A DNA stretch of 64,000 bases from Camelus ferus (GCF_009834535.1 NC_045696.1:77316001-77380000); one strand, 5' to 3'. Shown: positions 1,745 through 60,500, numbered from the stretch's first letter. The notes: a model not told the origin generated them from the letters alone. Program-made: numbers and translations.

Positions 1745-2030
1745 GTCTCTTTATCTAAAGCCAGTTGACCATAGATGTGTGTGTCTATTTATGACTTTGT
1801 CATTTTTACTATTATACATGTTAATTTTTATACCTGTATCACACTTTAATACATACAGCAATTTTAGAGTAAGATTTGAAGTCAGGTAGTAACTCCCACA
1901 TTTCACCTTTTTTTTTTTTTTTTCAGATTTATTTTGTCGATTCTGGATTTTTTGCATTTCCATATAAGTTTACAAATCGGCTTTTTAATTTTTGAAATAA
2001 AAAATATTACTGAAATATTTAATCAGGTTG
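1745..2030 (-). mobile_element. Old L1 ORF2 fragment
   Basis: Antisense L1 ORF2 sequence homologous to 2490-2750. Confidence 0.6.
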
Positions 2031-2034
2031 TTTT

Positions 2035-6990: not shown

Positions 6991-7279
6991 TGAATTTTTT
7001 TTCCCTGTAATTAAAGAGTCAATATGAAAGTCAGAGAAAAATATTTAATAATTTGGAAAGATGAAGGGGAGTTTGTATGCAAGTATCTTTGCCAGGTTTA
7101 ATTGAATGTAAAAAAAAACTTTATTTAAATATTAACATTGATGATGTCATATAACGTAAATTTTTTTAATGTGTAATTTTAATCCAATAATTGGACCACC
7201 TTTATACATTCCAACATAGATCATCTTTTTGTGTTTTAATAAATTATTTCTTTTATACTATTTTTGCCCTCCAGCCAGA

Positions 7280-7797
7280 GACCATTGAGAATACACTAAC
7301 AGCTGCGTAAATTTACCTTATTGCTCCTGAAAAGAAGGGAGAGGACCCACAATGGGAAAATATCTCAGGCTGTTTGAAAGGACTTACAGGATTTGAACTT
7401 GTGTCAGATGACTCTGCTGAAGATTCAAGAGAGAAAGGCTTTGCTCTAGATTGGGTTTGTCAGGAAGTGGGGACAATTCTATGACTGAGTTTCTAATAAA
7501 TTTCACTATAAGGCAGGAAGAATAAATTGAGGCTAGAATTGTGATTGGTAAAGAGGCAGCTCATGTTAGCCAGGATTGGGATGTTTGATCTCTCCTTGTG
7601 GTTTAGATAATGACTGTATTGTCTGTATTCAGCAATGACTATGGAATGATTGTGTCTTTGTCTTGATTCATCGACATCACAGAGCAGCCTTGTCTGATGC
7701 TGATGTTCTGGAAAAGTATATATGTTTGATAGGAGAAAATAGACATCTAGCTGTGAGTGCCAGGCCAACTCCTAGATGTCAGACGCTGTTTTTCTAA
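7280..7797 (-). mobile_element. Solo ERV LTR, family uncertain
   Basis: Contains ctagctgtgagtgccaggccaactcctagatgtcag, recalled from eutherian ERV LTRs. Confidence 0.55.
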
Positions 7798-8042: not shown

Positions 8043-9679
8043 AATGAGAATTTTGCTTTAAAGCTGACAGAATTCCATTCTGAAATGTCAAATAAAATAA
8101 AATCATCAGGGAGTTTTATTTATTATTTCTTTAGCTATAAGCTTTATAGTAAGGATAAAAGGTCTCTATGCTCTGTTTATAGCTTCCTGAATCTCTAGGA
8201 ATAAGTCAGTGAGTAAAGCTGTCTCTTATTTCATCCTTTCCAACAATGCCAATAATACTTCTACTTTGTTGAGTGGCTCTGAAAATAATAAAATTCATTT
8301 TTTTTCCTTTTAATAGGAAAGATACTGTATTGCAAATAAATCTTTTCATTTCCTTTCCCTACCATCTCAAATCAATATATTTTATGAGAAATTTTTTATT
8401 TAGTGTTTTATGGCTGAGTTTATAAATAAGACAGAAAATGTTCAGAGATTTAGAATTATAGTCATCACTAGGATCTTTTTTATTTTTGTCTTTTACTTCT
8501 GTGTAACTACTCAGTGCTGGCACAGCCTAGAAATGAATCCTTCTGAAACACTTCACCCCTAGGTATCTAAAAGGAGAGTAAAATTTTGTTTGTTTGTGTT
8601 TGCTGGTTTTCCGTGAGGGTTCTGCTCTTCGTTGAAAGTCATCAGATCTCTCTTATCTCTTTCTTAATTTATTTTCTTATTTTGCCGTATTATGATGAGA
8701 AATACCGTGAATAGCCAACATGTCTTTACGTGTGTCAGAGTCTTCTTTCTCAGTACCTAGCCCAAGCTGCTAAGTCGAATTATGTTTCCTTTTACGTGTA
8801 TAAATCCCCTGTAAGTGGCTCAGTCAGTGACTGGAGCAAGTGCTGCCTGTCTGTCTGATGCGGATCTTTTGCAAGTTGACAGACGGCCCTGCTTCACCTG
8901 TCTGCTCCTAGGAGAATCATAGTCTAGAGGTACCCAGATATAGTGAGAGTTTGGCCGGTTCGCTACCCAATGACAATCTGCTTAGACTGATCTTGTTTTC
9001 TTTTAACTTATAAAGACTATCAAGAAGGGGTAAGAAGGTTCTGATGAAAGAAACACAAGGGCATGTGATAACTTGGCTACAAATATATTGGAGAAGGAAA
9101 TATAAAGATTAGTGTATGATTTTATTAAGTTTAAATATTTTACACTTTTCTCACCACCCCTGGCTTAACTGGCCTCTTTTTTAGAACAGGTTCGCAATAA
9201 AACATAGAAGGTCGATACAGGATGTGGTGGCATTTATCCTTTGAAATTTGTGGTTTGCTTCCTAGAAAAACCTTTCTGCTTTGTTTTTAGACTCAAATGT
9301 ATTATTAGCTCAGCAGTGATCTTGACATTACAGGGAATCATAATGCACGTGATGGTCCCTTCAAAGAGCTAACAATATAGCTAGAGATATGCTGTTAAAT
9401 ACAAAAAAGATCTAAAAACTAAGAATTTTCTAAAACGGAAACAATCATAGTGAGCAATATTGTATAATAATATATGAATTTTCTGAGATAGTTCCCACTT
9501 TTTGGAATTTTATTTTTTTCTTAAATTGATATATTACATGTAGAATTCAATGTCTATGTCATGGCAGTACTTTTGATAAAAATCTGAGGGAGCGACTGGC
9601 TTCTCCATTTTAGAATGTGGTTATATACACGTGCACACGCAGAAAGCCAGAGTTACAGATAAACACAGCCATGTATAAA

Positions 9680-19904: not shown

Positions 19905-20268
19905 ATTTTTTTTTAGTTGAAGTACTGTCAGTTTACAATGTTATGTCCATTTCTGGTGTAAAGCATAATGCTTCAGTCATACATATACATACATATATCT
20001 GGTTTCACATTCTTTTTCATTAAATGCTACTACAAGATACTGAATATATTTCCCTGTGCTATACAGTATAAACTTGTCGTTTATCTGTTTTATATGAAGT
20101 ACTTAGTATCTGCAAATCTCAAACTCCCAATTTATCCCTTCCCATCCCCTTTCTCCCCAGTAACCATAAGCTTGTTTTCTATGTCTGTGAGTCTGTTTCT
20201 GTTTTTTAAATAAATTCATTTGTGTCTTTTTTTTTAGATTCCACATATAAATGATATCATATGGTATA
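19905..20268 (-). mobile_element. Young 5'-truncated L1 3' end (camelid-type)
   Basis: Poly-T followed by agttgaagtactgtcagtttacaatgtt. Target duplication tgctctttttaa at ~19893 and ~20273. Confidence 0.9.
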
Positions 20269-24996: not shown

Positions 24997-27881
24997 AGAT
25001 CTTACAAGTAATGTGGAGTGAGTCATCTGTGGCTAGGAGAGAATATATTTCATCCCCCACAAAGGAAGCTCAGGGGAAAAGCAGAGAGCTGTAAGAAACT
25101 GGACCAGAAGCCATGCTTAAAAAGCAGTAGTAAAACCAGGGTTTTCTGCTGACCGTACTGTCATCATCTTTTTCCCCAGCCAGGAAAAATGCTGTTTTAC
25201 AATAGATCTTTGTTCAGTTAGTGCCCACTGATGCCTCCCTAGGATGTAGGTTAAGTTAGGACAACTAGGTGACAACATAGAGAGCAACCATTTATACTTG
25301 GAAGCCAAAGATAATGACCATCTCTATACTGTCTATAAAGGCACCTGCCACCCAACGTTCCCTCAGGGTCAACTTGATTGACTCTTTTTGTGTGTGTGCT
25401 AATGATGTGTCCTCCACCTCTCTCATAGTGCTTATCATGTTATGTCAGGTTTTTTTCTGTTATATGGTGAGTTCTTTGAGAAAGATCACTGTGTACTGTT
25501 TATTCCTACATCCCCACAACCTGGAATAGTGCTTTGACATATATCTGGCATCAAATAAATGTGTGTTAAGTTGAATCAAACTGAACTGATATTCCCATAG
25601 ATAGAGAGTTTCAGTGTTTGGCACATCATAGGCACAATCAGATTTTAAGTGAGTATTTCATGTATAATTACTTGTATTTTTAACAATATTATCTAAGCTG
25701 GAAAAGAATCATTGGAAACAGTAGGCTGCTTTAATGAGAAAGGGGCAATTCAGGCTAAAGAAATTATTTAATGGATTTTGCTGATAACATTAAGGGCTGG
25801 CAATTTCATTTCATAATTATATGATGCTTAGAAGAGAGTTAAATAAATACAGAGAATCATAATATTAGGCTGCAGAAGAAAATGAACCAACTAAGAATCT
25901 AAAAGAGAAATGTATGTAATTATGTTTTTAAAAAGAATGTAGTATGTTGAGAATCAAACCAAAGAAATGAAAAGCTCACTACCAATTAGTAATACAACTC
26001 AATGTTCTGCAATAGACTAGCTACTAAAGTACTTTGGGGTTAAAGGTAGGTGACCCTTAGAATGAGTTAGCAATATAATTATGTAATATAAATTAATTGC
26101 AGAAAGTGAAAGTAGAACCTAGGGAAGAGGATGTAATCCGAACAGTATATTAAGATGCTACACGTAAAACTCAAAATTACATGAAGACTAAAGGCTAATA
26201 TATTTGAGCCACAGTTGTTGATCTCTCCAAGGTTTAAGAAGCTTTTCATTGAAAGTAAAAGAAAACCATGGCATAATCAACATACTTCTTGAATATCTGG
26301 GCCAATCCTAACTCAGGGGTTGTAAATTATTTACAGCAAGTGAGGCAAGGTATGGCTAGACCCCTCCAGAATATTGCTACTCATCGTTCTCTAAAGTTTT
26401 AGTCATGTATTTCCCCAGAATTTCTGTTGAAGCCCAGTCATTCCAATTCACATCAGCATGACCTTTGCTGAAGACATGTGTTAGTACTACTGCACTAACA
26501 GTAAGACACAGTCACAAAATAACTTTATGACACACAGAGTGCTTGAATTTGGTCTTTATAATCACTCTAAATGAAGAAGTTGATACTCAGAGACATTTGG
26601 TCAATTACCTAGGGTCAATCAGTCAATTATTTGATAGATATAAATAGATAAACATGTTTTTAGTCAACTTTTGTATAAGTAAAATCTCAAATATTCATAT
26701 ATTCGTCTATTGTAGACATTAAATCTTAACTTGAGCTATCAACTTGATAAAAGAAAAAAAAATCAGCCAATATACTGTACCACTAATTACTGGTAAATGA
26801 CATTCACTGAAAGGATGGGTTATTCATAAACAGTAGTCCCATCTTTGCAAGTTACATGTTGTACTTTGAAACTTACTGAGTTTCTCAATAAAAATGTATT
26901 GAGGGAACCTAGTGATTTGCTAGTTTTTTGGGAGGACCGAAATATAATTTATCCTCAAAGAATATGATTTAGCAGATTCAAAATAATAAATATATTAAAA
27001 TTGTTCAACTCAAGGTGGCATGAGCTAAGAACCAAAATAAATAATTCAGGCAAAAATATCATAGTGTTGATAGAAGACTGCATTCTTTTTCTGTCAGGCC
27101 ATTGAAAGAAGATATTCTCGTATATGCGTTTATCTAGGATGATGGCTTTTTTTTTTTTTTCACCAGATTACATCATGCATAAAGTGTATAGAAATTCCAG
27201 AAAGCCACCTGTAACTCATCTCTCTCTTATCCCTCCCATGATTCTCTGTACACAAGGGCACCAGGATTCCATCACTGGGAACCACTGCCTTAGGTGTCTA
27301 GTTGGGTATAATGAAAGGTTTTGGAAGGTTTAATAAAGTAGACAGGCTTTATCCTGTATAGGATTTAGATGAATTAGAAACAGTGGGTGAGATGTTCTGC
27401 ATACAAGTTCAGCTTTGACAAAATTATATGAATAGTGAGGGTAAGTGCTAATTTGCCCAATATTGATGTCTTACAGGATGACCTCCCAAAGGGATAGAGA
27501 TGACCTCATAAAGTGAAGAATCTTTTGTGAGTTGGAAACATGCCATGGAAAATATACAAGTAAGTATATAAGGCAGTCAACTGAGTAAAATATTGAGGGA
27601 TCAGCTCAGTCCTAGAAACCACTCATAAGTCGTACCGTATAGCCATAGTCATGAAGCTTGGGCTGAAGACTTTGATCAAGCCAGAGAAGGGATTGTTACC
27701 CCAGCCACGAATGATTCGTTGGCAGAATAGTTATGGAAGTCTTGAATTGTCATAAGAGGATTTCTCTCTCACTCCTGATCACATCAGGGAAGGAGCTGAT
27801 TCTTCCCTCATATTGTAAATTATATGACTCTGACACTCAGCCTGGCTGAATCATCATATACTGCCATAGAAAGCAGTAAGC

Positions 27882-28015
27882 AACACATCTTGTAGTAATC
27901 TATGGTGAAGAAGAATGTGAGACTGAATGTGTGTATGCTCCTATATGACTGAAGTCTTGTGCTGTACCCCAGAAACTGATACATTTCAAACTGACTGTAC
28001 TTCAAAAGAAATATT
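27882..28015 (+). mobile_element. Short young L1 3' end (camelid-type)
   Basis: atcttgtagtaatctatggtgaag...tgctgtaccccagaaactgatacatttcaaactgactgtacttca; same family as the copies at 19905 and 38830. Confidence 0.8.
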
Positions 28016-28733: not shown

Positions 28734-28963
28734 GACATTTGGCCATGCCATAAGGTCCTTGAAATTTGGTCCTACACAAAATTTTCATGAGCATATTTGG
28801 TCCATGCCAAATGGTTTTGGACAGGATCAAATATCAAGGATCTTTTGACATGGACCAAATGCTTTATGGGCATTTTGGACAGGACCAAATGGTCTGGCAA
28901 ATATCAAGGACATTTTGGGGTGGGCCAATTATCTTATGGATGTTTTGGACAGGACCAAATGTC
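28734..28963. repeat. Foldback array of ~29-bp units (3 reverse, 5 forward); probable non-autonomous DNA transposon
   Basis: atttggtcc..caaa three times, then ttttggacaggaccaaat-like units five times. Termini gacatttgg / ccaaatgtc. Confidence 0.75.
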
Positions 28964-30666
28964 CTTCAAGGGTTTGTGGTCTCTGTAGGTCTAATTCTGT
29001 TGCCTTGGTGAAAGGGTCGCTAGTTCTTGCTTATGGTGACTCATTTTCTTGGTGCTAAAGGGGTTTGACCATTTACTCAACTTTATTAGAAAATTATTTG
29101 GTGAAATTCCTTGTAGCCTGGGATTAGGGTGATTTTCTTCAGAGCGGATTTGCTTTGCTTTTTTTGCCAGGTATTTTGGGCACATCCAACCAGGGGCCGT
29201 ATTGAAGTATATTAATACTCTGAAGGCTTGAGAATTCACAGATGGTACAAATTTGGATTGAAAGCCCATGTATGAACTGGCTCTCAGAGGTAAGTCTTTT
29301 TCATATTGCTCTTCTCAACAACAAAGCACATATACTACATATCTTTCAATTTCATACTCGTAAGTAAAAATGACAGACAAGTTTGAGAACAAAGACAACT
29401 GATTCATGGTAAGTAAAACTGGTATCCGTCATTAAGATTTACAGAATTTATGTAGTGTGTTGCCTGATCTAGCAAGTCATGTGAGTTTAGGTAAGCAATT
29501 TTTTTCTGTATTTTATTTCAACCAGACTCCAGAGAAACTGAGGTAAAATTACAGGATCTAAGAATGAATAGGTTGGTTGGGAAACAAGTTATAAAATATC
29601 TGAATTGTCACGTTAGAAATTATAAATATTATTGAGTTGGTTATGGAATGTCATTAGAGTTTGTGTAGTGTTTTTGTTTTAGTAGTGAAGTGAAGTGAGA
29701 GCTGCTTCCTAAGATTATTTTACCAAAAGTGGAAATAAAAATCTGAATTGTTATTATGATTGCTTCTCTTTCCATGTTACCTGCAAAGATAAGATTTGGA
29801 CATACCTAAGATTAGAACTTCTAATAGGCTAAAACAAGAAGAAAAAAACATTAAAAACCCCAGAAAACTTCTCCCTACTTAGTAAAACAGCTGCTGCTCC
29901 TGACTGCTTCAGTTTATGGTTGAATAAAAATTAAATACATGGTACCCTGAAGAAAATTTTTCAATTACATAAAATGAATAAACCATGATGACAGAATAAA
30001 CTGCCAACAATTACCACACCAATACATGGACAAAATAAATTATTTATATTATTTTATTGTCTTCCATCTGTATTTTAAGACGGGGCCTGCACTTCAGCAA
30101 TATAAGAAGCTGAACATTTTTAATACCAACTATTAATTATGTGACAGTCAACCCAGTCATAAGTGGCAATGCAAATGTATCCTTAATATGACTGGAAGTA
30201 ACAGACTGACTAAAAATACCCTTTGTGCCTTTGTTTTCTCTTCTGTACTTAACTGCCATATGGCTTGTGACAACCCTGGAAAAGTGAAGTGATTATTCCT
30301 ACTAACCTTAAAGACATTCACACTTAGTGAATGTGAGTCAGATATATGTAATATTTGCATGTTATATAAATAATGAAATTTGTTTTGGTCTTATAAAAGT
30401 ACTCTTCTTTGCTCTACAACTTCAGCCTAACTATGGCTTAAGCTCTTATTTCTAAATGTATTATTCTGTCTTACTTCAAAAATTTGATTCTAGCAGTTGC
30501 ATGCCCTAATACTTTTAGTAAAATTACAGTTACTGTCATTTTAATTACAATATACTGTGGTGTGTTCCTCTTTGGGTTTATCCTGAATGGGACTCTCTGT
30601 GCTCCTTGGACTTGAGTGACCATTTCCTTTTCCAGATTAGGGAAGTTTTCAGCCATTATGCTTTCA

Positions 30667-31105
30667 AATATATCATGATAGATACATATGTGCCTTATTA
30701 TAATAATCGATCAAATCAGTAATACAAAGAATTTTTAAAATATTTTAATAATTGTAGAAAAATAGGTCATTTAAACCTGGCATTCTAGGTAATTCATTAT
30801 TTGAGCCAATTTAAAATTTATATCATAAGATTTGTCAGTGAAACGTATGTTGACATCTCACATAAAACAAACGGTCAGGAGTGGGACCTCCCACAAAGGC
30901 GGTTTTTCTCACCCCTGCCACAGTCCTGAAGCCTCTGACTTTCATGCTTCCAGAACTCCAATCCCAGGGTCAACCGTCTTCCACTTGCCACTCCTGACAC
31001 CTGCTGTATCACATAACAAGAAGAGAAATACGGCGTGTACCGGCTTGTGGTAGTCATAGCAGCTCCGAGTTAGGCCCTCCCCGCAGGAGGTCTTTCCGGG
31101 CTGTT
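30667..31105 (-). repeat. Diverged local duplicate of 33269-33708 (exon plus adjacent intron)
   Basis: Direct alignment by eye. acagtcctgaagcctctga, atgcttccagaactccaatccca and ggcttgtggtagtcatag are present in both copies. Confidence 0.95.
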
Positions 31106-31440
31106 GGGCGGGGCCAGGTGCCACCAGCACCGACTTCCGGCTTCACGTCGTAGAACGAGCTCCCAAATATGGTTGCCGCCAGTGTCCGTGTCCCAGGGTG
31201 AGCTGCCGCTGCTCTGGCCTCTCCAGGAAGTTCTTCAAGACCATCAGGTAGGTCTGGCCGAGGTTCCTATCAAATGACCGCTTTGGCCCTGGGTCCCGTG
31301 CACGAGAGGCTTTGTGTGTGCTCCTTAAGAGTGAGGTCTCTGTTTTCCGCAGTCCGTTGGGACTCCCGAAGTTATGCCCCACTGGCCTTCAAACATAAAC
31401 GCACTCGTCTTCCTGGTGCCGGACCCCCGGGCTGGGGAGC
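31025..31440. promoter_or_regulatory. CpG-retaining island-like segment with GC box and ETS motif
   Basis: The only CpG-dense stretch in the window. GGGCGGGGC at ~31106 and ACTTCCGG at ~31133. Confidence 0.4.
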
Positions 31441-31740
31441 CTGACATGGGGCTCAGAACCCTCACTCCTGTGGGAGGGCCTCTGCCATATAATTATTCTC
31501 CAGTTTGTGGTTAGCCCATCCCAGAGGTGTGGGACATGATTATGTTATGAGTCCGCTCCTCCTACCCATCTTGTTGTGGTTCCTTCTTTAGGTTGTTAGT
31601 TGTAGATCTTTTATGGTAGGATTTGGTCTTTTTCACAGGTGGTTGTTCTGCAGATAGTTGTGGTTTTGGTGTGCTCGTGAGAGGAGGTGAGATCAGGGTG
31701 TCTTTACTCCACCATCTTGGCCCACTCTCTAGTTTCTGTC

Positions 31741-32300
31741 CAATTTATAATTTCATCCTCAGAAATTTCTCTCCTAATGGCTGTTTTCCTTCATTTTGTT
31801 CGCTTTTGTTTGAAAGCAAGTGCGTCCACTTGCTTGAGTGATGGCCTATCTAAGGAGAGAAAATTTGTGAAGCTAGTTATTGTTTGGGTTTGTTCCCCCT
31901 TTGCTCTCAACTATTATTGTTATAAAGAGCTTATCTATTGGGTGACGTTGGAGTAAGAGACTTATCTAGTGTCTTTCTTCCATTTGGTACAAATAACAGT
32001 TGTCTAGGAATTTTGGCATATCTGGCACATGTGGTTTTCCTAGGCAGCACCCAGTTTCACTTCACTAGTCCATAAAGGACCCAGGGAGACAAACTCATTC
32101 CCATTCCTCTCCAACCAGTGCTGCCCCATGCCTCATCACCTTCCGAGGTGCAGTTATCTGAGTTGGCTAAGTAGAGATCAAGGCAAAGCAAAAGTTTCTT
32201 CCTCAGGTAAATACATACTCCCTCTTGCAGAGCCACGGGGTCCAGCTGGGAGCTCCTGTGCACATCCATTGTGGAGGTGGCCTAAGGATGACTCCGGAAT
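31741..32300 (-). pseudogene. Probable terminal exon remnant
   Basis: Acceptor atgttttag|ATTCCG and higher GC than the flanks. Phase-0 reading IPESSLGHLHNGCAQELPAGPRGSARGSMYLPEEETFALP*. The 3' limit is uncertain. Confidence 0.4.
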
Positions 32301-33525
32301 CTAAAACATACTATGGCATTTTCATAGTTAACAAAGGGCAGTTTGGCAAGTGTCAAGCTTAAGAAATGCCTGGATGAAAAATGAGGCCAAGTTCTACACC
32401 TTTTTTTCAGACGTATCCAAATTGTCAGGGGACATATATTGAGTATCTTTCATTCTTCTGTGTTGAGGGAATGAGAAATAGGTTAGACAGTGCATCTTAA
32501 ACCACCAGGAAAGCTAATCTGTCTCATTGAGCATTCTGTGATACCATTTTCACTGCAAATAGGTTGAAAACAATCCAATTTTTCAATCTGATCAAATGCT
32601 GCTATTGTTAATGCTGTTCTTGTAGAAAATCTGCAACTATTTGACTGATAGAGAATGTGAATAAAAAATACTGGTGGTTTTATTTAACATGTAGCACCCT
32701 GTTGTAAATGCTTGTGGAATCAGTATATACTCAGCTACATTCTGTATTCGTGTGATCTATGATTATATTAAAATTGTTCCCTATTCCCTTAATATTTCAT
32801 TATATTTTTGTGGAATAAATTATTACTGTGATTTTTGCAAACCTTCACTTTTCATTAGTTAAGAAGATATAGCCATCAGTTGCCCAATTTTCCTACTAAA
32901 CATATTTCAAAGTTCATTTTGGGTCCCTGCCAAGTTATTTTGTAAGATTCTGATTATTAGTTCATATTTGAATTTATAGTACCCTTCAACCTAACCTTTG
33001 CCATAAGAAGCAGTTCTGATTTGGAGATGTGTAGTTTATTAAATCCCATTTTTTTCTTATTTAATATCTCAAATAGATATTACTTTCTACAAATTGCTAA
33101 TCTTACTTTTGGAAAGAAATGCAGAAGTTTCAAGGTTACCTTGGGAACTCTGAAAAAAAAAGTTTGATAATTTTCCACCTGTAATTTAGAATACCCATGA
33201 TTCACATTGCGATGTATATGACCTTTGTGTCACTTTGAAGCTCCTGTGATCGTTCTTCAAATTCATCATATATACCATGATAAATGCATATGTAATTTAT
33301 TGTATTAATCAAATCAGTAGTTCAAAGAATTTTTTTCAGTATTTTATTAAGTCTAGAAAAAGAGGCCGTTTAAACCTGCCATTTCTAGATAATTCATTAT
33401 TTGAGTCAATTTAAAATTAATATCATAAGGTTTGTCAGTAAAAAATGTATTGTCATCTTATATAAAACAAATAGTCAGGGTGGGATTAGCTCTTCATGGA
33501 CCTCTCAGAAAGGTGTTTTTCTCAC

Positions 33526-33703
33526 CTCTGCTACAGTCCTGAAGCCTCTGATTTTAATGCTTCCAGAACTCCAATCCCAACATCAACCGTCTTCCACACG
33601 CCACTCTTGATACCACCTATATCACGTAACAAGATGAGAAATGTGGCGTGCACTGGCTTGTGGTAGTCATAGAAACTCCAAGTTTAGGTCTTTCCGACAT
33701 TGG
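33526..33703 (-). pseudogene. 178-nt exon remnant (putative cytoplasmic tail)
   Basis: Canonical acceptor ttctcatttacag| and donor GAG|gtgaga. All three frames contain stops. Confidence 0.55.
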
Positions 33704-34498
33704 CTGTAAATGAGAATTTTATGTACACTGTCTAAAAAATCGTCCAAAATTGAAAAATAAGGCAAAAGTGATTGATAGACCCTTTCAGTGTTATACTAGG
33801 GCAAAGAGCACTGAAAATTATTTAGGTAAATGCACTTAGTTTGATTCACCATTTACCATTGATTAAACTCTCAGATATGTTGAAGTTAACGGTTAGCTTG
33901 TAGATTTTTGTCCAGTAGAGATATAAATAATTTCTGTTCTGTGGAGCACATAACCGTAGAGACTGTGTTTCACAGCTCTGGTGGCTAGTAACCAATTTGG
34001 TAACCTACTCAATGAATCTAACATCCTATAAATAGCCTAGCTTCTCAGCTATAATTTGAGTCAGTCATACTGTCATTTTACTGAAACTCTTATGAATCAA
34101 CGAGTTAAATAAAATTTTAACATTTTTTTTCTATATTTGCCTGAGAATCAGTTGATTCAGCTATTTGAAAGTTGTAGTTTAAGAATCGTTTTTGGAATAT
34201 GTGGATATCTGAGCCACGTTGCAGACTTCCATGTTTGGAGACTCTGGTATCCATGGGTTTCCCAGGATAATGTTAAGGAAAATTCAGCAAAATGATGAAG
34301 TCTATGTAGGTTGTGTGCTATGTTCGGCCAGTGCCTTGTTCGTGCCTCAGCCTTGTGAGATGCTCAATGTAGTCTGCCTTTCCTCATCTTCAAGACCCAT
34401 CCCAATGTTGCTTGCTCTGAGTCTTCTCTGATGCCCAGCAATCTGCAACTCAGAACCAACATTTCCTTCCTCTTGCAATCTCTTGGTATTTTACTCAC

Positions 34499-35167: not shown

Positions 35168-35320
35168 CTGAAGAATCAGGAGATGAAAGAAACAGACAAA
35201 CTTTTTTGTAGAATTTTTTCAAAGGAAAATTTATTTTTGAAAGTATGAGGCTTTTTTTAAAGGTTCATGTGAATCGCATTCCGTTTCAGAGTCCTGACCT
35301 GCCCCTGTGTTGTGCCTTAC

Positions 35321-36240
35321 TTTTTTTGCCAGCCCTTTCCGCTACCCTTTCATCTTTCTCCTTGTTAAGTTGTGTCTTCTGTGCAGGATTAGACCCAAAG
35401 GTTTTAACATTTTTTTCAGTTTTTCTTAAATCAAGTGTGGTTGCAATCAGGTACCTATTTGGAGAGTTAAGGAACAGAGAGAAGGGAGAAAAGGGAAGGC
35501 CCTGCTGGGAAAAAAAGACCAAAACAGGAACAGAGAGGAAAAGGTGAAGCTCTGTTAGCAATTAACACAGCATATACTTTTCACTTCAGCATCTAGAGAA
35601 ATATTTGGTGAAATTAAGGAAATGACTTATAAGCTACCTCTGGACTCCTTTTTATTTATCTACTTTTTTTTTTCTTTTGCATGAAAAAGTCTCATTTAAT
35701 GAAATGACTACATTTAGAGAATTGAACTCTGCTTTAGAAGTAATAATGATCTAGTCCAAAACCTTTAGAAATAACTGGAAAGGAACCAAAGAACCGCTGG
35801 AAAATTCAACAGTGAGCACCAATTAAACTAAATCTTCAAAAGTTTGTTTCTCTAAACTGTTGCAGTGGACAAATAACTAAGTATTAGTGCTCCACATTGA
35901 ATGTACATTTTCATTTTCCTCATTTTTCTTCTCTAGCTTGTGTTCAGCAATCCTCAACTGTTTGACTTAATTCAAATCCTTTTTCAGTTTGTTTAATGAG
36001 AGGGAAAAGAAATGCATCTGACCTTTGCTTTGTTTGCAAAATTCAACTGCTGACATGACAACCTTCTCTGTTTTCTTAAATTTTGGATTGGTAGACTAGA
36101 CTGCAACAATTCTTCAACTCCTCTCTTCAGAAGAAGGGAATTTAGTTATTAATTAGAGACAAAGAATCTGATCCTGGTTTCACCTTGATAATCAAAAGCA
36201 CTCTGGGAGGTCTATTAGAATTAGATTTCACTTGACTGAT
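35321..36240 (-). pseudogene. Coding remnant, CADG-SEA-CADG
   Basis: In order: SNRPPRVLLIIKVKPG..IP (~36215); MHFFSLSLNKLKKDLN*VKQLRIAEHKL..MWSTNT*LFVHC..SSGSLVPFQLF (SEA-like, 36020-35760); ISPNISLDAEV..QQGLP..RYLIATTLD..VKTF (35620-35400). Donor AAA|gtaagg. Confidence 0.55.
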
Positions 36241-38610: not shown

Positions 38611-39740
38611 CATAATAATAAAACCACAGTAATTGCTGAATAAAGTACCACAGTAAAATATGTACTTTTAAATAACCAGCAAAATTCTAAGAAGTTCTTA
38701 GTAGTCCACAGGCCACCAGAATCTTTAACACTGCTTATTCAGCCATTGATTTTTGGTAACTGTATTGAATCAGATTGTCTATACTGTACTTCACAAAATT
38801 CAAGAATGGGTCAAGTATAAGAATGAGAATATTCACAGACATAGGAAGCAAATTTATGGTTACCAGGGCGGGAAGGAAGGGTGGGGAGGGATAAATTGGG
38901 AGTTTGAGATTTGCAGATACTAACTACTGTATATAAAACAGATAAACAAAAAGTTTATACTGTATAACACAGGGAACTATATCCAATATCTTGTAGTAAC
39001 ATATAATGAAATAGAATATGAAAAGAAATATATGTATATATTATATACATATGTACATCTGGTGTACAGTGAGGCATTATACTGTACACCAGAAATTGAC
39101 ATAACACTGTAAACTGACTCTACTTCAATAAAAATAAATAAATAATAAATAGATAGATAGATAGATAGACAGATAGATAGATAGATAAATAGAATAAGAG
39201 TATTGACAAAACAAGAATGGAAAATGTTGACAATTTAAAAAGTGGTTGAAAGTAGTTGGAGACTCATTTGCTTCTGCCTATATTTTAAAGTTTTCAAAAT
39301 AAAAGCTTTTTATCATCTACCAATTCTATATAATATCAAGTGATAAGTTTTTTGAAAGACATCAAGGCATTGTGGAGAAAATGTCTTCTCATTTTCACTG
39401 CTGAAGAAGCCTATGAACTGTATAAGTTTAGACATTCAGAAACACTTGAGCTTAAACTAATGAACAAAAATGAAAGTGTTCTAGGAGGGAGCGACAGAGA
39501 TAATAGAAGCTCAGTGATGAATAAATCAGAAAAATAGTTTAATAAGTTATAAATAGCATGTGTGAATACTAAGTTTCCTTTGGTTACCTGTACGACTGAC
39601 ACTTCTGACCCAAACTGGTTGCTGATAATACCATCAAAATCTTAATTGTTTGTCTTTTATACAACTTCTAAATATATCCATTTTGAAGTATAGATTACAG
39701 TGCTCAAAGGGAAGTTTATACATAGAAATTTAAAGCAGGA
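38611..39740 (-). pseudogene. Two exon remnants (~39740-39588 and 39410-38611), CADG-like, interrupted by a young L1
   Basis: Donor CAG|gtaacc at 39588 joins in phase to acceptor gttcatag| at 39410, giving YQQPVWVRSVSRT|GFFS. ISSVKDSGGLWTTKNF at ~38690-38740 resembles the CADG motif 'ATDKGGLSA.DAF'. Confidence 0.5.
38830..39190 (+). mobile_element. Young L1 3' end (camelid-type) with A-rich/(GATA)n tail
   Basis: atggttaccagggcgggaagg..gggataaattgggagtttgagatttgcagatac. Degenerate target duplication agaatgagaatatt / agaataagagtatt. Confidence 0.9.
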
Positions 39741-46859: not shown

Positions 46860-47605
46860 CCTATTTTAGGAAAATTTAATCACATTGACCTGATCAAATT
46901 CAGGACAGAGATGTAAGATTTGATGACAGAAAATGAGATGACACAGGGAAACGCATTTGAAAGAAAACTTGGGTGACCCCTTTGCCAGCATTTTCACACA
47001 AGGATAGACTTCTTGGGCACTAGAAAGAAGTTAAAGATCCTGTTGCTGTTGCGCCTGCATTTCAATAGAGTGCCTTACAGACAGACTGTGTGATGGAATT
47101 TCTGGATTCTTCTTTTTTCCGCCTTGGTTTTACTCCTTTTTACAATTTAGCATGATGCATTGAACTAATTAAACTCACTTCAGGTCTGGTAGCTTGTCAA
47201 GATGAGAGATACCTTTATGAAAAAAAATACCTAAAGCATTTGTATTAGATATGCCCTTTCTTACTTCTAAATTCACAGCATTTTGAGTTATAACTAAGAC
47301 AAGATACTTTTGTTTTTCTCTGCCTTAATGAGTGCTCTCCACTACTTGTAGTACACAGGGCTGCACTGTTACCCAATTAGGAGAGTATGTATACAGGATG
47401 CAGGGCTTGTTATCATTATTCTGCACATAATTGAGCCATGCGTCTTCTACCATCATCTTCGTGCTATCTCCCTCAGAGATGCTCATTATCATGCATAGCT
47501 TTTGCTTTCTAGCAGAATTGAGAATGTCCTTTGGGGGTTGAGCCTCAAAGTAACTTGACATCCTCATTAACTTTTATGGCAGCGAAGGTATTGAGTTTCC
47601 TTACA
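46860..47605 (-). pseudogene. Exon remnant, CADG plus SEA-like module
   Basis: Contains the 80-aa ORF 47325-47567 (SSYFEAQPPKDILNSARKQKLCMIMS..DAWLNYVQNN..ILYT), resembling DAG1 'GTYFEVKIPSDTF..KLKLTL..KSWVQFNSN..LMYG'. Downstream are LSLCENAGKGVTQVFFQMRF and PEFDQVNVIK. Acceptor ctcttcag|, donor GGG|gtaagc. Confidence 0.6.
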
Positions 47606-52879: not shown

Positions 52880-55530
52880 AGTAACAAAATTAAAAACAAT
52901 AAATTAGTTAATAATTAGACTAGAAAATATTCTCTTGCAAAAGAAGGCAGTAAAGAAGAAACAGAAAAGATAGGGGGACATATAAAAAAGCAAAAATTAA
53001 AAAAATGGACATAAATTTAGCCATGCCAAATCCGTATGAACGGATTAAATAAATCAAAAGCAGAAATTGTCAAAATAGTCACACATTAAAAAAAAAAACC
53101 TAACAAGTTCCAACTTGATGCTGTCTACAGGAGACACATTTAAGATTAAAAAAACAAAAAGGTTGAAAGTGAAAGATTGAAAGGATTAATTGTACCATAC
53201 AAATAATAAAGAGCTAGTGTGTCTCCAATATCACATAAAAGACTTTGAAACAGAAAATATTATTAGAAATAATGAGGTGAATTTTATAGTGACAAAATAA
53301 TCAATCTTTTAGGAAGATCTAACAATGATAAATGTATGGGCATCTAAAATGAGTATATGAAGCCGAAACTGACAGAATCGAAGGGAAATATAAATAATTA
53401 AAAATAGTAATTGGAGACTTCAATATCCCACTTTCAAAAATAGAAAAAAAATTAACTAGGCAGAAGATCATTGAGGAAATAAAATTCTTGAATGACACTA
53501 TAAGCCAACTAGACCTCACAAATATCTATAAAACAACCCACCCAACAATTACTGGATACATATTCTCTAGCACACATGGAAGATTCTCCAGGCTAGGCCA
53601 CATTCTAGGCTATAACACAGGCCTTGACAGACTTAAAAGAAATGGAATCACATGAAGTACATTCTCCAGAAAAAATAGGGTGGCATTAGAATTTCATAGC
53701 AACAAGAAATTTAAGAAATTCACAGTATGTAGAAGTTAAACAATACTAAATAACAAATCAAGGAAGATACCACAAGTGAAACTAGAAAATACTTTAAGAT
53801 AAATGGAAATGAAAGCAAGACATACCAAAACTTATGAGATGGAGTTAAAGCAGTGCTCAGAAGAAATGTATAGCTGTGAATACTAGTATCAAAAGAGGAA
53901 ATATCTAAAACCAATAATCTAAACATCCACCTTAAGAAACTGGAAAAAGAAGTGAAATCTTAGACCAAAGCCAGCCAAACAAAGGAAGTAATAAAAAATA
54001 AAACAGAAATATGTAGCTAATAGAAAAACAATAGAAAAAATGAAGCCAAAGGTTTCTTTGTAAAGACTGACAAAATTGACAAACCTTTAGCTATAATCAG
54101 AAGGGTGAGAGGCTTTAATTACTCAAATAATAAGATGAAGGAGTGAAAGTTGCTCCAAACTGTGAGGCAATGCTGTGAATATTTGTATACCCCAAAATTA
54201 AATAGCTTAGGTGAAGGGGGTAAATTCCTAGAAAATGCAAACTACTAAATGTCACTCTAGAGGAAATATAAAGTCAGAATAAACGTACAACAGGACAAGA
54301 GATTGAATTCATAATTTTGACAATTCCCACAAAGAAGAGCCTAGACTCAGATGGCTTACTGATGAATCTTGCCAAAAAGTTAAAAAAATTTACACAAATC
54401 CATCACCAATTATTCCCCAAAAAATAGCAGAGAGGGGACTATTTTCCAACTTACTCTGTAAGACTTGATTCTAAAAATCAGACAAGAAAAGAGAACTACA
54501 ATATCTTTTATGACTATAGATATAAAAATCCTCAATAAAATACTAAGAATCCAAATCTAGAAACATATAAAATGAATTATATATCATAATCAAATGGGAG
54601 TTATCCCAGGAATGCAGGTTGGTTTAACACCCAAGAAAACAATAAATGTAATACACCATAGAAATGAAATAATGACAGATTGAAAATCATGATGGAATAA
54701 TCATAGTTCAGGCGTACAAAAATGGAATTGGGCAGCCTTGAGCATCTGGTCTCAGAAATGTTTCTTTACCACTTAGAACATGAACTTTCTGAACTGTACC
54801 AAACCACAACCTCCCAAGGATACCACCAGCCACTTTAGAACATCTGCTAGCTTTAACCTTGTGGTCTTACAGTTTCCCTCAATGCAACTGTGTAACCATT
54901 TTGGATCCCAATCAATCCTTGCTTAACAAGCACCCTTACTTCTTGCCAGCTACTATTATAAGTCTTGACAAACAGCTTGTATAACTAACTGTGGGCTTGC
55001 GATTTTTGCCTTTATAAGCTTCTTCCATTTTGTAGTCCAACAAAACACAATTCAAGTGCTTCTTGAATCTGTGTTTCCTAGGCTGCAGAATGAACAAACC
55101 CTAAATAAATGCCTCTTCATCTCAATCAGATCTTCATCTCTGAACATTTTGGTTAACAGGAATAAAGGCCAACAACAACATGCTCAAATCAACAGGTGCA
55201 TTGAAAGCATGTGACAAATTCCCCCTCAAAAGAAATACTTAACAAATTATGAATAGAAAAGAACTTTTTAAAATCCCATTTCTGTAAAATGGCCAGAATA
55301 GGCAAATCTATATAGGCAGAAAGTAAATTAGTGGTTGACAAGTTGAGGGTTGGAAGAATGGTGAAACACTGCTGGCTTGTTCTGGAGATGACTTAAGTAA
55401 TCTAAAATTAGATTGTCATGGTCATTGCACAACTCTGTAAATATACTTAAAAACCACTTAGTCATACACTTTAAATGGATGAATCATAGGCTAAGTGTTA
55501 TATCTCAATAAATCTGTTTCAAAAAATATT
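52880..55530 (+). mobile_element. Degenerate L1 ORF2 5' half plus an L1 3' end, interrupted by an LTR
   Basis: tgctgtctacaggagacaca, gttggagacttcaatatcccact-like endonuclease text, ttatcccaggaatgcaggttggtttaaca. Resumes at 55159. Confidence 0.88.
54665..55158 (+). mobile_element. Solo ERV1-type LTR nested in L1
   Basis: TG...ggttaaCA ends, tataa at ~55013 and aataaa at ~55104. L1 ORF2 is continuous on both sides. Confidence 0.8.
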
Positions 55531-57049: not shown

Positions 57050-60000
57050 GATCTCTTCTCCATCCTATCTTATCTGCTGCATTTCCTCAGTCCTCATTGG
57101 TTATGGACAAACCACAGATACTGTCAATACCAACTTCTTCCATCATCTCAATTTCAACATCTCATCATCTGAATACAACTCCTTAGTTTTCCAGTTTACT
57201 CTCTCTTCTTTCCCAGCTAGTACAATTCTTTGACCTACTAGGTCCTAAATAAAACTTCATTTGCTTCTACTAGCTTACCACTATTTCTCTATACTCTCTA
57301 ATCCTGTACTACCCAATATGGTTTCTGTCATCCATCATTATACTAATTTCTCTTGCATGCATTGATCCTGTCTCCTGATATCTACTTAGTTAAATCCCAA
57401 GCCTGGTTAAATCCAGTTATCTGTCTATCCCATGTCTGCACTTTGAAGCTGACTTGGGTGAGGGAAAACTGAAAACTATGTTGATGCTATATTCTTTAAA
57501 AATATGATCAATTACTTGGCACTTAATGCCTCCTAGATTCCCTTCTCTAAAGAGAAAACTCTTTTACACCTTTTCCTCACATCTCTAACATTGCTCCTTT
57601 CTACTCACTATGACCCAGCTATTTGGTTCACTAAGCAAGTGAAAACCTACGTGATGATTTTGTTATTTGTTCCAGGGATGCAAGGATGGTTCAACATCAA
57701 CCAATTAACAAATGTGGTATACCACATTAACAAAATGAAAGATAATAATTATATGGTCATTTGAATACATGTAGAAAAAGCATTTGACAAAATTAAGCAT
57801 CCTTTCATGATAAAGACTCTTAACAAACTTGGTATAGAAAGAATGTACCTCAGTATAATAAAGGCCATATGTAACGAACTGAAATGTTTTCTTCTTAGAC
57901 TAGGACGCAAGACAAGGGTGCCCACTCTCATCACTTTTACTCAACATAGTACTGGATGACTTAGAGCAATTAGGCAAGAAAAACAATCAATCAATCAATT
58001 AATCAATAAATAAAACAAAACAAATTCAAATCAGAAAGGAAGAAGTAAAATTGTCTCTATTTGCAGATGACATGACCTTATATGTATATAAAACCTTAAA
58101 GACTCTACCGAAACACTTAGAACTAATAAACAATTTTAGTAAAACAGCAGGATACAAAATCAATATTAAAACAATGAACTACCAGAAAGAGAAATTAAGA
58201 AAATAATCTCATTTACAATAGCATCAAAAAGCATAAAATACTTAGGAAATAATTTAAGTAAGGCAGTTACTGAAAACTATAAAATATTCATGAAAGAAAT
58301 TTAAGACACAAATAAAGAGAAATATAATCTGTGTTCATGGATTAGAACCACCAAAGCGATCTACAGATTGAATGCAATTCCTATCAAAATTCTGATGACA
58401 TTTTTCATAGAAATAGAAAAAACAATCCTAAAATTTTATGGAATCACGAAAGTTCCAAATTGCCAAAGCAATTCTGAGAAAGCAGAACAAAGCTGAGGGC
58501 TTAAAATTTTCTGATTTTAAACTACATTACTAGGCTATAGTAATTAAAAGAGTAAGTAAAGGTGATAAAAAGTAGACCTAACAAATCAAAATAAAATAAA
58601 ACAAAATAGTAAGGTATTGGGTCTAAAAACAGATGTATAGATCAGTGGAAAATAATGGAGAACCCAGAAATAAACTCATGCATATATAATCAATTAATTT
58701 TTGAGAAATAAGCCAAAAATATACAATGGGGAAAGAATAGTTTTTTCAGTAGATGTGATGTTGTGAAAACTGGGTGTCCATATGCAAAAAAAAAAAAAAC
58801 AAAAACACAGTATTAGATTCCATCTTACACCATACACAAAAATCAACACAAATTAGAATAAGAACTTGAATGAAAGACGTGAAACTATAAAATTTCTAGA
58901 AGAAAACATAGAAAGTAAGCTCCTTGACAGTGGTTTTTAGCAATGAATTTTTGGATTTGACACCAAAACCAAAGGCAACAGAAGAGAAAATAAACAAGTG
59001 GGACTTCAACAAAGTAAAAAGCTTCTCCACAGCAAACAAAATGATCAAGAAAATTAAAAGGCTGCCAAAAGAATGAGAGAAGATATTTGCAACCACCTAT
59101 CTGACAAAGGGTTAGTATTTAAAGTATAAAAGGGTCTCATACAATTCAATACAATCAATCAATCAGTCAATCAATCAGTCACTCAAAACCAAGGGAAAAA
59201 TCAGCAAGTGATCTAAACAAGACATTTTTCCAAAGAAGGACATACAAATGGCTAACAGGTAATGATTAGTGCGTAATGTCACTGATACCAGCAAAATGCA
59301 AATCAAAACAATAATGATCTATTATATCTGTCGGGTTACCTATTATCAGAAAGACAAGATATAAATGATGGCAAGTATGTAGAGAAAAGGGAACCTTTGT
59401 ACACAGTTGGTGAAAATGCAAATTGGTACAGCACTATGGAAAACAACATGGGATTTCCTCAAGAAATTAAAAATAGAAGGACTGTATGAGTCATCAATCT
59501 CGCTTCTGGGTATATAGCCAAAGGAAATAAAATCACTATTGGAAGAGATATCTGTACTCCAATGTTTATAGCAGCCCTATTTACTATAGCCCAGGTATGG
59601 AAACTAAGTGTCCATCAATGAATAAATGGATAAAAGAAATATCACACATACACACAATAAAATATTATAGAAGTATCAGCCCTAATAAAGAAGAAAATTC
59701 TGTCACTTTCAACAACATGCATGAAACTGGAAGGTGTTATGTTGAGTAAAATACACCAGACAAAAAAAGACAAATATGGCATGGTATCACTTATATTTAG
59801 AATGTTAAAAAAAAAAAAAAAAAAAGGAAAGTTAAACTTCACAGAAACAGTAGAAAAGTGATTGCCAGGGGATGAGGGATTAAGGGAAATAGGAAGAGGT
59901 TGGTAAAAAGGTACAGACTTTCAGTTATAAATCATTAAGGTCTTGACAATCTAGTGTATAGCATGGTGAGTATAGTTTATAACATTCTATTTATAATTGA

Positions 60001-60500
60001 AATTTCCTAAGAGAGTAGAACTTAGTGTTCTCAACTAAATAAAGAAGTAGGTAGGTAGATAGGTGATGAACGTGTTAATTAACTCAGTGAGGTGAATCCT
60101 TTTGTGATGTGTAATTATATCAAACCATTAAGTTTTATATTTTAAATATCTTACAGCTTTGTCAACTATTCTTCTATAAAGCTGAAGAAAAATAAAAGCC
60201 AGTAGAAGGGAACTTTCTTACCCTACCACCACCACACACCACATCATATTAACCCACCTGTGACTGTATCGAAGTACTTTCTCCTTCTTGCAACATGGAC
60301 ATCTGTACTTCTGCCTATGGTCAAGATCTGTCTTATGGACTTGATCACAACCTCCTTGCCTATTCCAGGAGGAACTCCTCTGGCATTACCTTCTCTCTAC
60401 TCCTTTGCCATCAGTATTTGTCTTCTTATTGGGTCAATCTAATCAACGTGCCAATATGCTATAATATCATCTATCTTTTAAAAATTGCACATATTGTTTT
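57050..60500 (-). mobile_element. L2 fragment split by the L1MA insertion (57050-57640 and 60200-60500)
   Basis: Pyrimidine-rich L2 ORF-type text on both flanks. Confidence 0.6.
57650..60195 (+). mobile_element. 5'-truncated L1MA-type element (RT, C-terminus, 3'UTR)
   Basis: ccagggatgcaaggatggttcaacat; ctatttgcagatgacatg (LFADDM); full 3'UTR and A tail. Degenerate target duplication aagcaagtgaa / aagccagtagaa. Confidence 0.93.

What the first reader, a model, noticed from the sequence alone, without database searches (positions are those of the whole stretch)
30667..33708. An exon of the fossil gene copied into a neighbouring L1
30667-31105 is a clearly diverged direct copy of 33269-33708, sitting between an L1 5'UTR and an L1 ORF1 fragment. 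One junction lies at the exon's acceptor with ACAGCC microhomology. The other is near a shared TTCAAAT. Intron sequence is included, so the template was DNA or pre-mRNA. This fits templated repair or template switching that replaced part of the L1.
Basis: partly seen in the sequence, partly recalled or inferred. Interest (0 to 1): 0.7.

Follow-up and report, generated by a model that had tools for sequence, protein, structure and literature searches.

The report
Broken L1 holding copied neighbouring DNA
An old, tail-less L1 jumping element in a mammal's genome has its middle replaced by a 440-base copy of DNA from 1.5 kb away, most likely picked up while the element was inserting; it is a tidy fossil of a known kind of copying accident, with no sign of function.

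Summary
The duplicate is real. 30664-31104 matches 33266-33707 at 358 of 420 columns (85%, K2P 0.17), with two copies in the window. It lies between a minus-strand L1-type 5'UTR (31729-31100) and 135 bases of L1 ORF1 (30671-30537); at least 480 bases of L1 are missing.

New here: the L1 stops inside ORF1, with no ORF2 or tail, and a 16-17-base target-site-like repeat brackets the whole unit (p about 0.002-0.015). Best reading (0.5): one internally primed L1 insertion whose cDNA jumped to local sequence and back to the L1 5'UTR. Rival (0.35): later deletion with templated repair.

The 'exon of a fossil gene' is unverified: no protein relative was found and the strand is ambiguous. No orthologous locus or 5'UTR consensus was obtained. 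The scan's notes describe related L1-plus-local-copy events elsewhere in this genome (e1-7801668, e1-7801558), not this one. A variant of known L1 templated insertions; modest interest.

The parts
30527..30542 (-). Candidate target-site duplication, copy at the element's 3' end; its first 6 bases are also the last L1 ORF1-like bases
   Evidence: 13 of 17 columns match 31730-31746 (read from the sequences printed); chance tests
30537..30671 (-). L1 ORF1 fragment (about ORF1 codons 161-205 by the outside L1 L001); the element ends here, with no ORF2, 3'UTR or poly(A)
   Evidence: Pfam PF02994 E 3.6e-9; 70% to L001 over 135 bases; no other L001 match between 4487 and 30537
30664..30671 (.). Junction 1: 8-base overlap where L1 homology and source homology both hold (source and L1 agree at 7 of 8)
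   Evidence: L1 alignment starts at 30671, source alignment at 30664; chance at a fixed register about 7e-4
30664..31104 (.). The copy: 441 bases, direct repeat of 33266-33707; about 250 AT-rich bases (GC 0.29) plus about 190 GC-richer exon-like bases (GC 0.55)
31099..31104 (-). Junction 2: ACAGCC hexamer shared with the source end; the copy lacks the adjacent 5 source bases; the join gives a minus-strand acceptor-like site (score 3.5) at 31100
   Evidence: chance within 11 offsets about 1e-3. That L1 itself carries the hexamer is recalled, not tested
31100..31729 (-). First ~630 bases of an L1-type 5'UTR, apparently complete at its 5' end
   Evidence: GC 0.55, 22 CpG, o/e 0.47 vs 0.17 for the window; start motif seen once in the window; L1 label recalled, no outside copy found
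31730..31746 (-). Candidate target-site duplication, copy abutting the L1 5' end; the plus strand reads TTT/A at its edge, like an L1 endonuclease site
   Evidence: endonuclease consensus as given in PMC11702581 and PMC5322556
33266..33707 (.). Source segment, 1537 bases beyond the L1 5' end, set in unique AT-rich DNA; no terminal repeats or flanking duplication seen by eye
33526..33703 (-). Unverified; a plus-strand reading from 33537 is also possible
   Evidence: donor 13 of 6378 GT sites, acceptor 1129 of 8324 AG sites; frames; no protein relative found

Best explanation
One aberrant L1 insertion made the whole unit. The plus strand was nicked at a TTT(T)/A site. Its 3' end paired with an A-rich stretch inside ORF1 of an L1 RNA instead of the poly(A) tail (internal priming), and 135 bases of ORF1 were copied. 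The cDNA end then left the RNA and paired through the 8-base overlap with a minus-polarity template 1.5 kb along the same chromosome: the strand that resection of the other DNA end would expose, or a nascent minus-strand RNA. It copied 440 bases, went back to the L1 RNA at ACAGCC in the 5'UTR, copied to the 5' end and was sealed, leaving a 16-17-base target-site duplication. Both copies then decayed without visible selection. Shown: the order of parts, the duplicate, junction 1, the missing L1 3' part. Statistically supported but not proven: the flanking duplication. Inferred: the single event, the enzyme and the nature of the template.
For: L1 homology ends inside ORF1 at 30537, and no further L001 match lies between there and 4487. 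The 5' flank resembles the sequence at that 3' end: 31 of 20000 random pairs score as well, and 13 of 9136 positions with the flank fixed; anchored test 4 of 1500 (17 nt), 6 of 1500 (20 nt), 23 of 1500 (12 and 15 nt). The repeat abuts the expected L1 start and overlaps the ORF1 end, as internal priming predicts. The copy is a direct repeat on the L1's 5' side, the polarity needed for one continuous cDNA. CpG clock, rough: the 5'UTR keeps 22 CpG (o/e 0.47), while the two copies share 3 CpG with 4 and 3 decayed on one side, so the L1 does not look much older than the duplication. Precedent: 22 templated insertions among about 3,598 tumour L1 insertions (bioRxiv 2024.08.27.596794, passages); three insertions with locally templated DNA (PMC11702581 section 7); ORF2p copies DNA templates and jumps templates (PMC10830420, passages); tail-less insertions with TSDs by internal priming (PMC5322556 section 16).
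Against: The duplication is imperfect (13 of 17) and was noticed before it was tested; most 3'-truncated old L1 pieces come from later deletions (general knowledge). Published templates are typically under 250 bases and within 15 bases of the site; here 440 bases at 1.5 kb. A return jump to the L1 RNA that skips 480 or more bases is not described in the passages I read. The CpG counts are tiny and assume equal methylation. The 5-base gap beside ACAGCC needs a further event. No orthologous or empty site was seen.
Confidence: 0.5

Rival explanations
1. Two steps (closest to the first reader). An L1 was already in place. Later a break or stalled fork inside it was repaired by microhomology-mediated template switching (FoSTeS/MMBIR or polymerase-theta-type repair), deleting 480 or more bases of L1 and filling in 440 bases from 2.6 kb away.
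For: Microhomology at both junctions. Intron-like DNA is included. Templated insertions of hundreds to thousands of bases with more than 4 bases of microhomology are a described signature (PMC5120786, passages). Extra indels cluster near junction 2. It needs no return jump to RNA.
Against: It needs a second rare event in the same 1.6-kb element if the flanking duplication is real. CpG retention in the 5'UTR gives no sign that the L1 is much older than the copy (weak).
Confidence: 0.35
2. Spliced chimeric RNA. An upstream L1 promoter transcript was spliced from its 5'UTR onto the acceptor at 33703, kept the next intron, and served as the second template after internal priming; only one jump is needed.
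For: Junction 2 falls at the minus-strand AG of the source, and the L1 side ends in CAG. L1-mRNA chimeras with splice sites at junctions are described (bioRxiv 2025.02.02.635956, abstract and passages).
Against: No second copy of the 5'UTR in the window. The acceptor is weak (1129 of 8324). The copy lacks 5 bases just after the AG. The chimeras in the passages read have the mRNA exon 5' of L1, the reverse order.
Confidence: 0.07
3. The 440-base segment is an old dispersed repeat, or part of a mobile chimeric L1 family, and the two copies are independent insertions.
For: Copy number in the whole genome could not be counted (no genome held).
Against: Only two copies in 64 kb. No terminal repeats, tail or flanking duplication at the ends of either copy by eye. 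L1 sequence is deleted at the site. No look-alike in the scan's index (low sensitivity), none in viral contigs, and 0 of 149 candidate stretches confirmed in metagenome contigs.
Confidence: 0.06
4. Assembly artefact.
Against: 15% divergence with indels; 14 of 24 listed runs hold 98-99% of sampled words, 7 of them from 3 studies not marked as the source.
Confidence: 0.01

Closest known systems
L1 'templated insertions' formed during integration (bioRxiv 2024.08.27.596794, passages; PMC11702581, abstract, passages and section 7)
   Same: A non-L1 segment duplicating nearby genomic DNA is built into an L1; proposed route is cDNA leaving the RNA and pairing with local DNA.
   Different: Here the template is 440 bases at 1.5 kb (reported: typically under 250 bases within 15 bases), it is sandwiched between ORF1 and the 5'UTR, the element has no tail, and the event is old and germline.
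Tail-less, internally primed retrocopies with TSDs (PMC5322556, abstract, passages and section 16; Srikanta et al. 2009, recalled, not seen)
   Same: 3' end inside the RNA at an A-rich stretch, no poly(A), flanking target-site-like repeat overlapping the RNA end.
   Different: Carries an internal deletion filled with local sequence; the TSD is decayed and only statistically supported.
FoSTeS/MMBIR deletion with templated insertion (PMC5120786, passages)
   Same: Deletion plus a long templated insertion from nearby, with microhomology at the junctions.
   Different: Does not by itself explain the tail-less L1 end coinciding with a repeat of the 5' flank.
Endonuclease-independent L1 insertions, NCLI (PMC1920257, passages)
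   Same: 3'-truncated L1 without a tail; one case carries 98 extra bases copied from local DNA.
   Different: NCLI events lack TSDs and usually delete target DNA; here a TSD-like repeat and an endonuclease-like site are present.
Spliced L1 and mRNA/L1 chimeras (PMC5860796, search listing only; bioRxiv 2025.02.02.635956, abstract and passages)
   Same: Loss of 5'UTR-to-ORF1 sequence; one junction at an AG.
   Different: Junction 1 is not a splice site, intron-like DNA is kept, and the order is L1 5'UTR then host sequence.

Membership tests
L1 templated insertion formed during TPRT | Non-L1 segment that duplicates nearby genomic DNA, joined to L1 | tested here: met
L1 templated insertion formed during TPRT | One TSD around the whole unit | tested here: inconclusive
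   13 of 17 match; 31 of 20000; 4, 6, 23 and 23 of 1500
L1 templated insertion formed during TPRT | L1 and copied segment arrive together (empty site in outgroups) | not testable with these tools
   no genome held; no orthologue found
L1 templated insertion formed during TPRT | Typical, not defining: template under 250 bases, within 15 bases of the site | tested here: not met
   441 bases, 1537 bases away vs passage
Internally primed tail-less L1 insertion | 3' end inside the element, no poly(A) | tested here: met
   L1 homology ends at 30537; no L001 match between 4487 and 30537
Internally primed tail-less L1 insertion | RNA 3' end complementary to the target, with TSD and endonuclease-like site | tested here: inconclusive
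   30537-30549 matches both L001 and the 5' flank; TTT/A at 31746/31747 read from the sequence; TSD decayed
FoSTeS/MMBIR or TMEJ deletion with templated insertion | Deletion plus templated insert with microhomology at both junctions | tested here: inconclusive
   junction 1 shown, 7 of 8; junction 2 hexamer present, but its L1 origin is recalled and a 5-base gap adjoins it
FoSTeS/MMBIR or TMEJ deletion with templated insertion | Unrearranged L1 existed at the site earlier | not testable with these tools
   no relative's locus available; CpG clock weakly against
Spliced L1 chimera | L1 donor joined exactly to a host acceptor | tested here: inconclusive
   junction at AG but 5 bases missing; acceptor weak; no 5'UTR consensus obtained
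Spliced L1 chimera | Upstream L1 with the same 5'UTR on the same strand | tested here: not met
   none within the window; beyond the window not testable
Dispersed repeat family | Many copies, element-type ends | tested here: not met
   2 copies in 64 kb; no element ends by eye; genome-wide count not possible
Exon of a unitary pseudogene | Translation matches a known protein | tested here: not met
   no hit; short queries, so weak evidence of absence
Exon of a unitary pseudogene | Splice sites and an open ancestral frame | tested here: inconclusive
   strong minus donor, weak minus acceptor, fair plus acceptor; 2 of 6 frames without shared stops; no codon-position bias, 9, 8 and 6 differences

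The most novel reading that the evidence does not exclude
A germline fossil of one L1 reverse-transcription reaction that used three templates in a row: L1 RNA primed inside ORF1, then the nascent unspliced RNA (or resected DNA) of the host locus 1.5-2 kb away, then the L1 5'UTR again. It placed an L1 promoter directly in front of a duplicated exon with its donor, a ready-made alternative first exon, possibly at the time the host gene was dying.
Probability: 0.2. Interest if true: 0.5.

Novelty: new variant of a known kind. Interest (0 to 1): 0.3.

Why it matters
If the single-event reading holds, L1 insertion can duplicate a few hundred bases from kilobases away and bury them inside the element in the germline. 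The passages I read show this only in tumours and cell lines, with shorter and closer templates. Such 5'UTR-copy-ORF1 sandwiches would be read by repeat annotation as two unrelated L1 fragments, so they may be undercounted. For this locus there is no evidence of function, and the exon claim is unproven.

Tried and rejected
Gene identity. The exon-like stretch gave no Pfam hit in 3 minus frames of the source and 6 frames of the copy or 3 plus frames of the source; no PDB hit for the two best minus frames; no protein-database hit (targets up to 2000 residues only); no usable Atlas hit (none; best 0.78, unnamed). Across the window, 148 of 512 stop-free segments of 36 or more residues were scanned: 2 had hits at E up to 0.02, neither at its curated cut-off. 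Of 20 hand-picked segments, 4 had weak hits, none at cut-off. The best, NPHP3 at 47229-47573 (17 bits vs 33), led to 6 representatives: 3 short ORFs 69-90% identical to the window and 3 repetitive proteins, none with a usable name; rejected. The plus-strand exon-like piece 29171-29289 matched nothing. 60221-60385 and 7311-7481 gave nothing meaningful in PDB. No Rfam or tRNA match.

L1 5'UTR consensus. Not found in viral contigs, plasmids, genome contigs or G001 (5 matches, best E 0.017, taken as chance); L001 and L002 match only the ORF1 piece.

Selection test. Exon-like part 24 of 177 differences vs intron-like part 38 of 243, p 0.58; no sign of constraint. An in-silico empty site matched no older repeat across the join.

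Expression.

Literature. A search for a lost gene near NAALADL2/TBL1XR1 found 0 papers. In searches and the passages read I saw no report of this exact sandwich; most subscription papers are not held, and bioRxiv supplements (Fig. S10 of PMC11702581, Supplementary Fig. 4d of 2024.08.27.596794) were not seen and may show such cases.

TTCAAAT as microhomology: rejected, out of register.

Full report
Observation. A self-comparison of the window finds one plus-strand duplicate, 30664-31071 against 33266-33684 (E 5e-106). Local alignment extends it to 30664-31104 against 33266-33707, with 358 of 420 aligned bases identical and K2P distance 0.166; at non-CpG sites 51 of 397 differ. With a recalled neutral rate of 1.5-2.5 per billion sites per year this gives roughly 30-45 million years. 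The scan's notes call this genome a camel (unchecked). If so, the date lies after camelids left other even-toed ungulates and before camels and alpacas split (dates recalled). An artefact is very unlikely: 14 of 24 listed runs hold 98-99% of the sampled words, 7 of them from 3 studies not marked as the source. Junction reads were not examined.

Anatomy. On the minus strand the order is: a GC-rich stretch 31729-31100 that I recognise from memory as the start of an L1 5'UTR (GC 0.55, 22 CpG), the copy, then 135 bases of L1 ORF1 (Pfam E 3.6e-9; 70% to the outside L1 L001, window 30671-30537). In L001 the matching stretch begins 480 bases into ORF1, so those bases and the rest of the 5'UTR are missing. 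No outside copy of the 5'UTR was found, so its label and whether both L1 pieces belong to one subfamily are untested.

Junctions. At the ORF1 side, L1 homology starts at 30671 and source homology at 30664; source and L1 agree at 7 of these 8 bases (chance about 7e-4 at a fixed register). At the 5'UTR side ACAGCC is shared (chance about 1e-3 over 11 offsets), but the copy lacks the next 5 source bases and has a 15-base insertion nearby. That L1 itself carries this hexamer is my recall.

The L1 ends inside ORF1: L001, which covers about 300 further bases of ORF1 and about 2.1 kb of ORF2, finds nothing between 4487 and 30537. The 17 bases abutting the L1 start (31730-31746) recur at this 3' end (30527-30542; 13 of 17 columns). 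A free alignment scores as well in 31 of 20000 random pairs. An anchored test gives 4 of 1500 for 17 bases, 6 for 20, and 23 each for 12 and 15. The plus strand reads TTT/A at the edge, like the endonuclease site, and 30537-30549 matches both L1 and the flank. This is the pattern of an internally primed, tail-less insertion (PMC5322556 section 16). I noticed the repeat before testing it, and later deletion is the commoner cause of 3'-truncated L1 pieces, so I put the chance that it is a true TSD at about 0.7-0.75.

Mechanism. If one TSD brackets the unit, cDNA grew along the plus strand from 30542 upward: ORF1, then the source, then the 5'UTR. The template for the middle part must have minus polarity and lies 1537 bases beyond the site. 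That is the strand exposed by resecting the other DNA end, and also the polarity of a minus-strand nascent RNA; the sequence cannot separate the two. ORF2p copies DNA and jumps templates in vitro (PMC10830420 passages). Locally templated L1 insertions are known: 22 among about 3,598 in tumours, typically under 250 bases and within 15 bases, and three in cell lines. A rough CpG clock agrees: the 5'UTR keeps o/e 0.47 against 0.17 for the window, while the two copies share only 3 CpG with 4 and 3 decayed on one side. The counts are small and equal methylation is assumed. The two-step rival, later deletion with templated repair, fits the junctions equally well (PMC5120786 passages) and needs no return jump to RNA, but it needs two rare events in one short element. 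I give 0.5 to the single event, 0.35 to two steps, 0.07 to a spliced chimeric RNA, 0.06 to a dispersed repeat and 0.01 to an artefact.

The exon. The upper 180 bases of the source are richer in GC (0.46) and CpG (o/e 0.54) than the window, and end at a strong minus-strand donor (13 of 6378 sites, matrices from memory). Two of six frames have no stop shared by both copies. Against this: the minus acceptor is weak (1129 of 8324); a plus-strand acceptor at 33537 scores better (157 of 8324); the strongest exon-like piece nearby, 29171-29289, is on the plus strand; differences show no codon-position bias (9, 8, 6); divergence equals that of the intron-like part (p 0.58); and no search found a protein relative. 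The queries are short, so absence is weak. The segment is exon-like; the gene, strand and frame are open. From offsets in the scan's notes (MUC13 17.2 Mb before, IL12A 11.9 Mb beyond) and recalled gene order, the window may correspond to the NAALADL2-TBL1XR1 region of human 3q26; this is inference only.

Comparison and verdict. It works like an L1 templated insertion combined with internal priming. Membership hangs on the TSD and on empty-site data that I could not obtain. It differs from the cases I read in template length, distance, the sandwich order and its germline age. My searches showed no report of this exact form, but supplements and most subscription papers were not seen. Earlier notes in this genome describe related events (e1-7801668, e1-7801558), which I did not test and do not count as support. 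A real, well-preserved rearrangement; a new variant of a known kind; no sign of function; interest 0.3.

Noticed in passing
   Followed up: partly
window 30913-31104 vs 33526-33707: In the exon-like part the copy has G/C where the source has A/T at 15 sites against 4 the other way (p 0.019); the intron-like part shows 16 to 12. The copy beside the L1 5'UTR may have been shielded from methylation decay or subject to GC-biased conversion; it cannot be polarised without an outgroup.
   Followed up: partly
window 30913 and 31100 (-): The copy keeps a donor (score 5.2) and gains an acceptor-like site at the L1 join (3.5), directly downstream of an L1 promoter region; use is untested.
   Followed up: no
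window 47385-47567 (-): Matches three short ORFs from public assemblies at 69-90% identity: probably orthologous or repeated mammalian DNA rather than a gene.
   Followed up: partly
window 28828-28961: Two 64-base copies 70 bases apart, 80% identical; looks like an old decayed repeat.
   Followed up: no
window 1749-4947 (-), 53398-54672 and 57665-59085 (+): Other old L1 ORF2 fragments, 60-64% to L001 in the long matches; not continuous with the element studied.
   Followed up: partly
window 19905-20190, 27887-28005, 38833-39139: Three copies of a short interspersed repeat, 74-81% alike; probably a SINE.
   Followed up: no
window 7275-7466, 8912-9029, 27629-27727 (+); 60258-60359, 35299-35501 (-): Further exon-like or protein-like stretches on both strands; none matched a family at cut-off.
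   Followed up: partly
L002:1-350: A contig in a bacterial genome bin begins with mammalian repeat DNA including an L1 ORF1 piece, joined to bacterial-looking sequence: host contamination or a chimeric contig.
   Followed up: no
window 30300-34000: Two RNA runs labelled reproductive system hold 0.90-0.91 of the words over the whole stretch: unspliced RNA or DNA carry-over; not resolved.
   Followed up: no
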